Source: Ostreococcus lucimarinus (taxonomy: Eukaryota). From it: a stretch of DNA of 64,000 nt. This document shows positions 24,736-30,316 of the stretch, piece after piece (position 1 is the first letter of the stretch; each line of letters begins with the position of its first letter). The stretch lies in NCBI GenBank assembly GCA_000092065.1, contig CP000584.1; one strand, 5' to 3'. The position numbers were made by a program, and so were the translations under genes. The notes below the pieces were generated by a model that was given only the letters and a program-made list of their open reading frames with translations, ran no database searches and was not told the DNA's origin.

Positions 24736-24826
24736 ATGAAGCTCGTGCGGTTTTTGCAGAAACTCTCCAACGAAAGCGTGACGATAGAGCTCAAGAACGG
24801 CACCACGGCGCACGGGACGATCATGG
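24736..24826 (+). CDS. SMD1: Small nuclear ribonucleoprotein Sm D1, exon 1 ([30 protein letters not shown] + G codon nt 1)
   Basis: ATG at 24736. Near-identical to eukaryotic SmD1 N-terminus ([23 protein letters not shown]…HGTI). The reading frame breaks after ..ATCATGG|GTGCGTG. Confidence 0.8.
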
Positions 24827-25045
24827 GTGCGTGCACGATGACGACGACGGCGCGCGACGCGCGAGGACGACGCGCGAGGACGAACGAGAGAAGCGCGAAT
24901 GCGAAACGCGGGAAACGCGGCGACGATCGGGACGCGGCGAGAAGACTCGACGGGAGACGAGACGCGAGAGGGACGAGACGCAGGGCGAGCGACGCGAGCG
25001 AAGACTGACGAGCGCGAAAATCACGGCGTCGCGCGCGATCGACAG
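24827..25045 (+). other. Inferred spliceosomal intron (~219 nt) in SmD1; donor G|GTGCGTG, branch-like GCGAAGACTGACGAG 37 nt upstream of the AG
   Basis: Splice junction inferred from protein conservation (…HGTIMG|[10 protein letters not shown]…). The acceptor position may be off by 1 nt against the ORF-track frame. Confidence 0.7.
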
Positions 25046-25299
25046 GCGTGGACGTGAGCATGAACACGCACCTGAAGCAGGTGAAGCTCACGCTCAAGGG
25101 TAAAAACCCGACGGCGGTCGAACACCTGAGCGTTCGAGGGAACACGATTCGGTATTACATCCTTCCGGACTCTTTGAATCTGGACACTTTGTTAGTAGAC
25201 GACACGCCCAAGCAAGGGAAACCGCGCGCGAAGGCGGCGGCGAGCGCCGGTCGAGGGCGCGGTCGCGGTCGAGGGCGCGGGCGCGCGCGGCCGACGTAG
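25046..25299 (+). CDS. SMD1: SmD1 exon 2, including the C-terminal (GR)n tail ([16 protein letters not shown])
   Basis: [52 protein letters not shown]… matches the SmD1 Sm2 motif and the RG-repeat tail. Frame taken from ORF-track entry 25048..25299. Confidence 0.8.
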
Positions 25300-29503: not shown

Positions 29504-29593
29504 CGTTCGCCGAACGCGCCTCGCCTCGTAAACGCGCGTGTAACACGCTTTGATTCGCCTCGCGTCTCGTCACACACCGCCGTCATCGCGACG

Positions 29594-30316
29594 ATGCGCC
29601 CGTACGACGCCGACGCCGACGCCTGGGATGACACCGCGCTCGTCCGCGCGTACGACGACGCGATCGCGAGGCACGGCGCGCCGTCGAACGCGCCGACGGC
29701 GCGACGACGAGGCTCGAACGAGGACGAGCGCGCGAACGACGCGCCGACGCGCTCGGGCGACGCGCGGCGCGAGGCGACGCCGCGGTCGAGCGAACACACG
29801 CGCGCGCGGGCGTCGCCGGTGCCGCATTACTACGCCGAGACGTCGTACGGGGACGAGTACGAGTACGAGTACGGCCGTCGCGCGCCGCCGCCGCCGCCGC
29901 CGCCGAGACGAGGCCACGACCCGTACGACGCGTACGGTGGGTACTACGCCGCGCGAGATGAAGACTATGGGTACTTTGAGGATGAGTTTGCGGCGTTCTC
30001 GCCGTTTAGACGCGGAAGAGGACCGCCGCGAGGACCGCCGCGAGGACCGCCGCGAGGACCGCCGCCGTCGCCCGGCGAATACGGTGGGTATCCTCATCGC
30101 GCGCCGCCGATGACGCCGCGAGGGATTCGCGCGACGCCACCGCGCGCGCCTCCGGATATGACGGAGTCCGCGCTCGAGACGGCGCGGTCGTACGAAGACG
30201 ACGGGTACGACCCGGACGAGCTCGCGAATTTACTCTTGAGTTGGTACTACGCGGGGTACTACACGGGAAGTTTTTCCCGACAGCCCCCGCCGCAGCCGTC
30301 GTCGTATCCGGGATGA
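29594..30316 (+). CDS. SMN: Survival-motor-neuron (SMN)-like protein without Tudor domain: N-terminal Gemin2-binding-like helix, Pro/RGPP-rich middle, C-terminal YG-box
   Basis: ATG at 29594. N-terminus AWDDTALVRAYDDAI matches SMN exon-2a motif [14 protein letters not shown]. C-terminus DELANLLLSWYYAGYYTGSF matches the SMN YG-box (LxxLLxSWYxxGYxTGxY). Poly-Pro and PPRG x3 lie between them. Confidence 0.6.
   Translation: MRPYDADADAWDDTALVRAYDDAIARHGAPSNAPTARRRGSNEDERANDAPTRSGDARREATPRSSEHTRARASPVPHYYAETSYGDEYEYEYGRRAPPPPPPPRRGHDPYDAYGGYYAARDEDYGYFEDEFAAFSPFRRGRGPPRGPPRGPPRGPPPSPGEYGGYPHRAPPMTPRGIRATPPRAPPDMTESALETARSYEDDGYDPDELANLLLSWYYAGYYTGSFSRQPPPQPSSYPG

What the first reader, a model, noticed from the sequence alone, without database searches (positions are those of the whole stretch)
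24736..30316. SmD1 gene lies 4.3 kb from a Tudor-less SMN-like gene, with PRP22 nearby: a spliceosomal snRNP assembly/splicing neighbourhood
The SmD1 gene (24736-25299) is complete, including its C-terminal (GR)n tail. In other eukaryotes that tail is symmetrically dimethylated and bound by the SMN Tudor domain. Only two genes away (29594-30316) is a 240-aa protein with both diagnostic SMN end-motifs and no Tudor domain between them. Its N-terminus AWDDTALVRAYDDAI matches the Gemin2-binding motif [14 protein letters not shown]. Its C-terminus LANLLLSWYYAGYYTG matches the YG-box oligomerisation motif. The middle contains only poly-Pro/PPRG repeats. A Tudor-less minimal SMN is known from fission yeast, but SMN orthologues are poorly annotated in green algae. 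A 240-aa low-complexity protein like this would be missed by standard pipelines. PRP22/DHX8 (12526-15933) is in the same 20-kb stretch.
Basis: partly seen in the sequence, partly recalled or inferred. Interest (0 to 1): 0.62.

Follow-up and report, generated by a model that had tools for sequence, protein, structure and literature searches.

The report
Tudor-less SMN gene near SmD1
A small gene in this green-alga window really does encode a stripped-down SMN protein, the helper that builds splicing particles, but its position near two other splicing genes looks like ordinary inherited gene order, not a functional cluster.

Summary
All sequence-level observations hold. SmD1 is a two-exon gene (24736-24826 and 25046-25299) with a (GR)6 tail. 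ORF 29594-30316 (240 aa) lies 4,294 bp downstream. A PRP22/DHX8 helicase sits at 12526-15933 on the minus strand.

The 240-aa protein is an SMN orthologue. Pfam SMN_G2-BD scores 33.1 bits against a cut-off of 22.2. Its C-terminus shares ten consecutive residues (SWYYAGYYTG) with the solved S. pombe Smn1 YG box. No Tudor domain was found by Pfam or AlphaFold2, and the linker is disordered. Both ends are 78-100% conserved across divergent Ostreococcus-type lineages, against 26-52% for the linker.

The "neighbourhood" reading is not supported. The whole block is collinear in relatives. O. tauri breaks it between SmD1 and SMN. Only 3 of about 30 window genes concern splicing.

Tudor-less SMN is not rare. 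Only 15 of 135 profile hits carry a Tudor domain. Angiosperms and Mesostigma have G2-BD plus YG-like proteins, some already named "survival motor neuron". Gupta et al. 2021 noted Plantae YG boxes.

This is a new member of a known kind. It has modest value because recent plant papers still call plant SMN uncertain. Gemin2 could not be tested.

The parts
29594..30316 (+). SMN orthologue, Tudor-less, 240 aa, single exon
   Evidence: ORF. Pfam SMN_G2-BD above cut-off. PDB matches to human SMN G2BD and S. pombe Smn1 YG box. 17 homologues with conserved ends.
29606..29674 (+). Gemin2-binding helix (residues 5-27; predicted helix 13-27)
   Evidence: PF20636 at 33.1 bits against cut-off 22.2. 13/21 identical to human SMN residues in 5xjl/2leh. 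78-100% identity across lineages. Helix in the AF2 model.
29675..30148 (+). Disordered Pro/Arg/Tyr-rich linker in place of a Tudor domain; includes a perfect 12-nt x4 repeat (RGPP x4) at 30018-30065
   Evidence: No Pfam family at E<=10. pLDDT mostly below 60 and no strands. 26-52% identity among relatives. Tandem repeat, with repeat phase differing in a 97%-identical relative.
30185..30271 (+). YG-box region (residues 198-226; helices 190-199 and 207-224); two YxxG units (YYAG, YYTG), third unit absent
   Evidence: phmmer E 6e-4 to 7bb3. BLASTP 1e-8 to the S. pombe construct. Pfam PF20635 only 14.4 bits against cut-off 21.3. pLDDT above 90. 86-100% identity across lineages. All four synonymous differences against L013 fall at codons 216-231, in or just after the YG box.
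24736..24826 (+). SmD1 exon 1
   Evidence: Sequence. Splice verified in frame. Same two-exon structure in L002-L006.
24827..25045 (+). SmD1 intron (219 nt, GT..AG, 5% T)
25046..25299 (+). SmD1 exon 2 including the (GR)6-AR tail (25249-25290) and the stop codon
   Evidence: Pfam LSM at 62 bits on the spliced protein. Tail read from the DNA. GR tail conserved in L002, L003, L004 and L006.
25513..26289 (+). Intervening gene 1: weak MIT-domain protein
   Evidence: Pfam MIT at 28.2 bits, just below cut-off 30. First ATG located. Conserved in relatives.
26504..29503 (+). Intervening gene 2: ankyrin-repeat HECT E3 ubiquitin ligase, 91 bp upstream of SMN
   Evidence: Pfam HECT 1e-50 and Ank_2 3e-20. 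Adjacent to SMN in every Ostreococcus-type locus with an upstream gene (L001-L010, L013), including O. tauri. Not seen in the two most distant loci, L011 and L012.
12526..15933 (-). PRP22/DHX8-type DEAH-box helicase
   Evidence: Pfam S1, DEAD/Helicase_C, HA2_N, HA2_C and OB_NTP_bind. First ATG at 15933.

Best explanation
ORF 29594-30316 is the SMN orthologue of an Ostreococcus-type (Mamiellales) green alga. It has the minimal, fission-yeast-like architecture.

Inferred mechanism:
- The N-terminal amphipathic helix docks on the C-terminal domain of Gemin2.
- The C-terminal YG-box helix self-associates as a glycine/tyrosine zipper, producing SMN-Gemin2 oligomers.
- Through Gemin2, that core holds SmD1/D2/F/E/G and loads the Sm ring onto snRNAs.
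- A fast-evolving disordered Pro/Arg/Tyr-rich linker replaces the Tudor domain. This SMN therefore cannot read dimethylarginine on the SmD1 (GR)6 tail in the metazoan way.

What is shown: domain content, order, conservation pattern and predicted helices.
What is inferred by homology: Gemin2 binding, oligomerisation and the role in Sm-core assembly.

The proximity of SmD1 (two genes upstream) and PRP22 (about 14 kb away, opposite strand) is best read as incidental linkage. It has been carried along by the high collinearity of these compact genomes, and it is not a selected or co-regulated cluster.
For: - Pfam G2-BD above the curated cut-off.
- Matches to the solved human SMN Gemin2-binding helix and the S. 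pombe Smn1 YG box.
- AF2 model: confident terminal helices (pLDDT above 90 for residues 190-224), a disordered middle and no beta-barrel.
- Purifying selection on the two ends only: 78-100% and 86-100% identity against 26-52% for the linker. This holds across lineages whose neighbouring HECT gene is only 35-47% identical.
- In a 97%-identical relative all four synonymous changes fall in or just after the YG box, and all replacements fall in the linker or tail.
- An exhaustive profile search recovers SMN proteins of fungi, stramenopiles, amoebozoa, haptophytes and plants through the same two motifs. Of 135 hits, 117 have G2-BD, 91 have a YG-box and 15 have a Tudor domain.
- Hu et al. 2023 (PMC10470402) reconstituted Sm-core assembly with the Tudor-less S. 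pombe SMN complex.
- Gupta et al. 2021 (PMC8287954) showed that the third G-motif glycine is dispensable for self-interaction.
- For incidental linkage: block collinearity, the break in O. tauri, diverse window gene content, no snRNA genes and the chance estimates.
Against: - The Pfam YG-box model is below its cut-off (14.4 bits against 21.3), and the third YxxG unit is absent.
- No Gemin2 orthologue could be looked for in this genome or in any Mamiellales genome with the tools available, so the binding partner is assumed.
- There is no transcript or protein evidence.
- In Arabidopsis, GEMIN2 and the methylosome are dispensable (PMC13596061), so the pathway may matter less in the green lineage.
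- SmD1-SMN linkage persists in at least three divergent lineages. Being within 3 genes of a direct partner has a nominal p of about 0.008, so weak selection on linkage is not excluded.
Confidence: 0.77

Rival explanations
1. The three genes form a selected snRNP-assembly/splicing neighbourhood. Keeping SmD1, SMN and PRP22 in one chromatin domain would coordinate their expression.
For: - SmD1-MIT-HECT-SMN order and strand are kept in L002, L003 and L004-L006 although the proteins are divergent.
- Nominal p of about 0.008 for SMN lying within 3 genes of one of about 10 direct partners.
- All four genes are on the same strand with 80-215 bp spacers.
Against: - The conserved unit is the whole block from the OCRL phosphatase to DAGK and beyond, not the splicing genes specifically.
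- O. tauri splits SmD1 from SMN.
- PRP22 is on the other strand, six genes away from SmD1 across an OCRL phosphatase, a v-SNARE and unknown genes. Such a neighbour is expected about 36% of the time.
- The two intervening genes have no splicing role.
- Short spacers and same-strand runs are normal in these compact genomes (own knowledge).
- The p-value is post hoc.
Confidence: 0.07
2. The protein descends from SMN but no longer works in Sm-core assembly. It keeps an oligomerising YG helix and an N-terminal helix for another role, for example as a scaffold of nuclear bodies or condensates through its Pro/Arg/Tyr-rich linker.
For: - The linker is low-complexity and rich in RG/PRG and Tyr, features typical of condensate-forming proteins.
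- Arabidopsis tolerates loss of GEMIN2, PICLN and Sm methylation (PMC13596061).
- No Gemin2 has been demonstrated here.
Against: - The residues kept invariant are exactly those of the Gemin2-binding helix (D9 A10 W11 D13 A15 L16 R18 A19 Y20 A23 I24). This includes the Asp equivalent to human D44 (own knowledge of the SMA mutation D44V).
- That pattern is hard to explain without the Gemin2 partner.
- The linker, which would be the functional part under this view, is the least conserved region.
Confidence: 0.13
3. The ORF is a chance open frame or pseudogene in GC-rich DNA, and the motif matches are fortuitous.
For: - GC-rich sequence gives many long spurious ORFs on both strands here.
- The middle of the protein is low complexity.
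- No expression data are available.
Against: - The intact ORF is conserved in the same position in more than six divergent loci.
- Two independent motif matches occur in the correct order and at the correct termini.
- The Pfam hit is above the curated threshold.
- Conservation is concentrated at the motifs.
Confidence: 0.02

Closest known systems
Schizosaccharomyces pombe Smn1 (Yab8; 152 aa; structures 4RG5 and 7BB3)
   Same: - N-terminal Gemin2-binding helix, a linker with no Tudor domain, and a C-terminal YG box.
- SWYYAGYYTG is identical.
- Works as the oligomeric core of a minimal SMN complex (PMC10470402).
   Different: - The algal linker is about 160 residues of Pro/Arg/Tyr-rich disorder, against about 80 residues in yeast.
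- The third YxxG (LAEG in yeast) is replaced by SFSR followed by prolines.
- Partners (Gemin2, Gemin6-8, ICln) are not identified in the alga.
Human/metazoan SMN (294 aa)
   Same: - Gemin2-binding helix 13/21 identical.
- The YG-box core S-W-Y-x-x-G-Y-x-T-G is conserved.
- A Pro-rich stretch lies before the YG box.
   Different: - No Tudor domain, hence no sDMA reading of Sm tails.
- Tyr instead of His at the position of human H273.
- No third glycine of the zipper.
Angiosperm and streptophyte 'SMN Gemin2-binding domain-containing' proteins (e.g. Glycine max LOC100799132, Gossypium 'Survival motor neuron', Salix 'SMN-like protein 1', Mesostigma Mv04182)
   Same: - Green-lineage proteins with an N-terminal G2-BD (40-58 bits in angiosperms, 23 bits in Mesostigma) and a C-terminal WY..G.YTG motif, without a Tudor domain.
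- hhalign gives 94% probability over the G2-BD between the two families.
   Different: - The angiosperm middle region has a coiled-coil-like EYNQL..YYELEEQRQKILQQL segment and a Cys-rich segment, not a Pro/Arg linker.
- The YG box is degenerate (NAWYSAGFYTGKY).
- Only the G2-BD aligned in the profile-profile comparison.
- Reported absent from Arabidopsis (PMC13596061, citing Gupta 2021).
Mini-SMNs of ciliates and Mucoromycota (Blepharisma, Stentor about 80 aa; Absidia 127 aa)
   Same: Tudor-less, with a conserved LLMAWYYAGYY(S/T)G YG box and only two YxxG units.
   Different: Much shorter. The ciliate N-terminal helix is too diverged to hit the G2-BD model.

Membership tests
SMN (survival motor neuron) family | N-terminal Gemin2-binding helix (Pfam PF20636 at or above the gathering score) | tested here: met
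   33.1 bits against cut-off 22.2, residues 5-27. Match to human SMN in 5xjl/2leh.
SMN (survival motor neuron) family | C-terminal YG box (interdigitated Y, G and small-residue motifs; Pfam PF20635) | tested here: inconclusive
   Pfam 14.4 bits, below cut-off 21.3. However, phmmer gives E 6e-4 to the S. pombe YG box across the PDB, BLASTP gives 1e-8, ten consecutive residues are identical, and the helix is confident. Two of three YxxG units are present. Gupta 2021 (PMC8287954) reports that the third glycine is not required.
SMN (survival motor neuron) family | Motif order: G2-BD at the extreme N-terminus and YG box at the C-terminus of one polypeptide | tested here: met
   Residues 5-27 and 198-226 of 240, in a single uninterrupted ORF.
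SMN (survival motor neuron) family | Physical binding to Gemin2; Gemin2 gene present in the genome | not testable with these tools
   No whole genome was available. The metagenome scan with a human+fly Gemin2 alignment found only an animal-like contig. No Gemin2 profile hit occurred in the window or fetched algal loci, and no SIP1 Pfam hit in window ORFs.
SMN (survival motor neuron) family | Self-oligomerisation through the YG box | not testable with these tools
   Only a monomer prediction was possible.
Metazoan-type SMN | Central Tudor domain (PF06003) that binds sDMA Sm tails | tested here: not met
   No Tudor-type family at E<=1 on the whole protein, and none at E<=10 on the linker. No beta-strands in the AF2 model.
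SmD1 (Sm core protein D1) | Sm/LSM fold plus a C-terminal Gly-Arg repeat tail | tested here: met
   Pfam LSM at 62 bits on the spliced 114-aa product. (GR)6-AR tail read from the DNA and conserved in relatives. Symmetric dimethylation was not testable.
PRP22/DHX8 DEAH-box helicase | N-terminal S1 domain followed by a DEAH helicase core, HA2 and OB fold | tested here: met
   All five domains found in order. That the S1 domain distinguishes DHX8/Prp22 from Prp2, Prp16 and Prp43 is my own knowledge. No orthology tree was built.
Functional gene cluster (selected linkage of pathway genes) | Linkage conserved beyond background synteny, and retained when surroundings rearrange | tested here: not met
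   The whole block is collinear in L002-L006. The one rearranged genome seen, O. tauri, separates SmD1 from SMN.
Functional gene cluster (selected linkage of pathway genes) | Co-expression of members | not testable with these tools
   No expression data were available.

The most novel reading that the evidence does not exclude
A Tudor-less SMN-Gemin2 core is ancestral to the whole green lineage. It persists from Mamiellales picoalgae through Mesostigma to most angiosperms, and the widely repeated statement that 'plants have no SMN' is an Arabidopsis-specific loss. If so, Ostreococcus would be the simplest system for testing what SMN does in the green lineage without a Tudor-sDMA step, being haploid, transformable and having a single-exon 240-aa gene.
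Probability: 0.45. Interest if true: 0.5.

Novelty: new member of a known kind. Interest (0 to 1): 0.3.

Why it matters
Three recent papers state either that Arabidopsis has no SMN orthologue, with GEMIN2 the only SMN-complex member (Nat Commun 2025, PMC11965559; iScience 2023, PMC10470402), or that a plant SMN orthologue is uncertain (Plant Physiol 2026, PMC13596061). They build evolutionary models of chaperone-free Sm-core assembly on that basis.

A clear G2-BD plus YG-box protein in a chlorophyte picoalga bears on this. Related Tudor-less proteins occur in Mesostigma and in many angiosperms. Together these suggest the green lineage inherited SMN, so its reported absence from Arabidopsis would then be a secondary loss.

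This refines existing knowledge; it does not overturn it. Gupta et al. 2021 had already noted YG-box proteins in Plantae, and databases already label several of them as SMN.

The gene-neighbourhood aspect would matter only if the linkage proved to be selected, and the evidence here points the other way.

Tried and rejected
1. Exact look-up of five window proteins (SMN, spliced SmD1, HECT, p168, the 1130-aa ORF). The nearest named relative is O. tauri, at 56% SMN identity with 8 or more collinear genes.
2. A trimmed N-block plus C-block profile (A2) used to reach distant green algae. The word-indexed search returned only proteins of 131 aa or fewer (ciliate and fungal mini-SMNs, fragments). It did not even return the parent family.
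3. Gemin2.
   - Human Gemin2 was verified against PDB.
   - A human+fly alignment scanned against JGI metagenomes gave one animal-like contig only.
   - hmmsearch of six-frame translations of the window and all fetched loci found nothing algal.
4. dN/dS against the 97%-identical contig L013. There were too few differences (4 synonymous, 4 replacements plus a repeat-phase shift) for more than a qualitative statement.
5. Rfam scan for snRNA genes that might extend a 'splicing neighbourhood'. None were found.
6. Pfam YG-box on the isolated C-terminus. Sub-threshold.
7. p168 (30408-30914, minus strand) as a possible fourth splicing gene through a Wbp11 hit. Rejected at E 0.13 and 13 bits against cut-off 24.3, in a basic low-complexity stretch; the protein begins MGCLSSK.
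8. Cryptic Tudor domain in the linker. Rejected.
9. Literature search for SMN together with Ostreococcus, Micromonas or Chlamydomonas. Nothing relevant was found.
10. The location of SmD1 in O. tauri beyond the 10-kb flank was not determined.
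Full report
**What is in the sequence**

The window has 62.5% G+C and is densely packed, with about one gene per 2 kb.

- SmD1 is not one ORF. It has two exons, 24736-24826 and 25046-25299, separated by a 219-nt GT..AG intron. 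The spliced 114-aa product is in frame, scores 62 bits on Pfam LSM, and ends in (GR)6-AR-PT.
- From the SmD1 stop to the SMN ATG is 4,294 bp. Two genes fill this space: a weak MIT-domain gene (25513-26289) and an ankyrin-repeat HECT ubiquitin ligase (26504-29503).
- The helicase at 12526-15933 is on the minus strand. It has the S1 + DEAH + HA2 + OB architecture of PRP22/DHX8, and its first ATG is at 15933.

**Identity of the 240-aa protein**

Residues 5-27 pass the curated threshold of Pfam SMN_G2-BD (33.1 bits against 22.2; E 3.8e-8). They are 13/21 identical to the human SMN helix crystallised with Gemin2 in 5xjl and 2leh.

Residues 198-226 match the YG box of S. pombe Smn1 in 7bb3. The E-value is 6e-4 over all PDB sequences and 1e-8 pairwise, and SWYYAGYYTG is identical over ten residues.

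The Pfam YG-box model itself stays below its cut-off, at 14.4 bits against 21.3. The third YxxG unit is replaced by SFSR. Gupta et al. 2021 (PMC8287954) report that this third glycine is the least conserved and is not needed for self-interaction.

No Tudor-type family is found in the whole protein at E<=1, and no family at all in the isolated linker at E<=10.

An AlphaFold2 model built on 16 homologues has helices at 13-27, 126-135, 190-199 and 207-224. The blocks covering residues 191-220 have mean pLDDT above 90. Everything else is disordered and there are no beta-strands. A hidden Tudor barrel is therefore excluded.

**It is a real gene under selection**

Seventeen homologues were found. 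One is the annotated O. tauri 'unnamed product' at 56% identity. The rest come from marine and other metagenomes.

Across them the N-block is 78-100% identical to the window protein and the C-block is 86-100% identical. The linker is only 26-52% identical. These lineages are deeply diverged: the adjacent HECT protein is only 35-47% identical.

Against a 97%-identical relative (L013), all four synonymous differences lie at codons 216-231, in or just after the YG box. All replacements lie in the linker or the C-terminal tail.

The linker also carries a perfect 12-nt x4 repeat encoding RGPP x4 (30018-30065). Its phase differs in that relative.

**The 'neighbourhood' claim**

In three further lineages (L002, L003, L004-L006) the order is p471(-), SmD1, MIT, HECT, SMN, p168(-), then DAGK. 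OCRL-type phosphatase and v-SNARE genes lie upstream in L003-L005. The conserved unit is therefore a long collinear block, not the splicing genes specifically.

In O. tauri the part from HECT onward is collinear for at least eight genes. Upstream of HECT, however, lies a 4,177-aa EF-hand gene, and no SmD1 occurs within 10 kb. The one rearrangement observed falls exactly between SmD1 and SMN.

The window's other genes have no link to splicing. They include:
- Mg-chelatase H and a SNF2 ATPase
- an OSCA/RSN1 channel
- DAG kinase, DnaJ and a CobW_C-domain protein
- a cNMP-binding kinase, a glycosyltransferase and JmjC
- a PQ-loop protein, GH31, CRAL-TRIO, D123 and cytochrome b561

There is no snRNA gene and no SIP1/Gemin2 domain.

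The chance estimates use my own assumptions of about 7,800 genes, about 170 spliceosomal genes and about 10 direct Sm-assembly partners. On those figures a splicing gene within +/-10 genes of SMN is expected about 36% of the time. A direct partner within +/-3 genes is expected about 0.8% of the time. The second figure is notable but post hoc.

**How it most likely works**

This is inferred by homology with the reconstituted S. pombe system (PMC10470402).

1. The N-terminal helix binds the Gemin2 C-terminal domain.
2. The YG helix zips into dimers and higher oligomers.
3. Gemin2 then holds SmD1/D2/F/E/G for loading onto snRNA.

Domain content, order, conservation and helix prediction are shown here. 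Binding, oligomerisation and function are inferred. The invariant residues D9 A10 W11 D13 A15 L16 R18 A19 Y20 A23 I24 are those of the Gemin2-binding face, which argues for a conserved partner.

**Comparison with what is known**

An exhaustive profile search of 1.84 billion representatives gave 211 hits. Only three 50%-identity clusters belong to the family proper, so it is narrow and Ostreococcus-type. The remainder are SMNs caught through the two terminal motifs.

Of 135 hits scanned, 117 have G2-BD, 91 have a YG-box and only 15 have SMN_Tudor.

Named hits scanned individually and found Tudor-less include Mesostigma and many angiosperms.

Other named hits, which the aggregate scan suggests are mostly Tudor-less but which were not all checked one by one:
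- fungi and ciliates
- brown and chrysoparadoxan stramenopiles
- a haptophyte and Balamuthia

The angiosperm family has 280 hits. It has a strong G2-BD (40-58 bits) and a degenerate YG motif (NAWYSAGFYTGKY). Some sources already name it 'Survival motor neuron'. No Brassicaceae or Poaceae appear among the 120 hits listed.

This agrees with Gupta et al. 2021, who noted YG-box conservation in Plantae. It also agrees with the Plant Physiol 2026 paper, which cites SMN-like proteins in some plant groups but none in Arabidopsis.

No paper in the library connects SMN with Ostreococcus, Micromonas or Chlamydomonas.

**Verdict**

The gene identities are right and the Tudor-less SMN call is well supported. 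It is a new member of a known kind, the minimal SMN of the S. pombe type, in a lineage where it has not been described.

The splicing 'neighbourhood' is most likely incidental inherited linkage.

The main open point is Gemin2, which I could not test.

The modest interest lies in adding a chlorophyte anchor to the argument that the green lineage ancestrally had SMN.

Noticed in passing
P0003 (Logan assembly) versus window 29594-30316: P0003 is the window's SMN protein as it would read after C-to-T conversion of the coding strand. In-silico conversion reproduces 196 of 226 residues. The differences I inspected sit at CpG-containing codons: PPPPPPP reads SSSSSSS, i.e. CCG to TCG. A bisulfite-sequencing run of this species seems to have been assembled as if it were normal DNA, and it implies CpG methylation in this gene body.
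   Followed up: partly
window 26504-29503 and 29594-30316; L001-L010, L013: The ankyrin-HECT E3 ligase gene sits 57-192 bp upstream of SMN on the same strand in every Ostreococcus-type locus with an upstream gene, including O. tauri. This pairing is more deeply conserved than the SmD1 linkage. Whether it means anything is unknown; human SMN is a target of HECT and other E3 ligases (own knowledge).
   Followed up: partly
window 30018-30065: A perfect 12-nt x4 tandem repeat encodes RGPP x4 in the SMN linker. The repeat phase and copy differ in a 97%-identical relative (L013). This is a microsatellite-like, fast-changing RG/PRG segment reminiscent of SmB tails.
   Followed up: partly
window 26782-26975: A 72-nt tandem repeat (2.7 copies, 85% matches) duplicates an acidic/basic peptide (DDDDGVRAVRRRRRMKASNPFESDDDD) in the N-terminal region of the HECT/ankyrin protein.
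   Followed up: no
window 21002-24394; L002 1424-4831: A 1,130-aa Cys-rich ORF with no Pfam match and internally repeated segments lies between p471 and SmD1 in the window and in L002. It is absent from the same position in L003 and L004-L006, so it is a lineage-specific insertion into the collinear block.
   Followed up: partly
window 24827-25045: The SmD1 intron is 5% T and 69% purine on the coding strand. It has no polypyrimidine tract, and a CTGAC lies about 40 nt from the 3' splice site. The intron position is conserved in L002-L006.
   Followed up: partly
window 34529-34710 (-) and 58822-58909 (-): Rfam finds a tRNA spanning 182 nt (45.7 bits), probably intron-containing, which ARAGORN misses. 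ARAGORN instead calls a tRNA-Ala(cgc) inside overlapping protein-coding ORFs, and Rfam does not support that call.
   Followed up: no
P0092, P0106, P0166, P0189, P0204, P0211-P0323 (angiosperm proteins): A roughly 300-aa angiosperm family has a strong SMN G2-BD, a coiled-coil-like EYNQL..YYELEEQRQKILQQL segment, a Cys-rich segment and a C-terminal NAWYSAGFYTGKY motif. It is present from Tasmannia and Dioscorea to legumes, Vitis, Citrus, Malus and Gossypium. No Brassicaceae or Poaceae appear among the 120 best of 280 hits.
   Followed up: partly
window 30408-30914 (-): A 168-aa Lys/Ala/Gly-rich protein begins MGCLSSK, a possible N-terminal acylation motif. It is conserved next to SMN in all relatives. 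Its only Pfam hint (Wbp11, E 0.13) is not significant.
   Followed up: no
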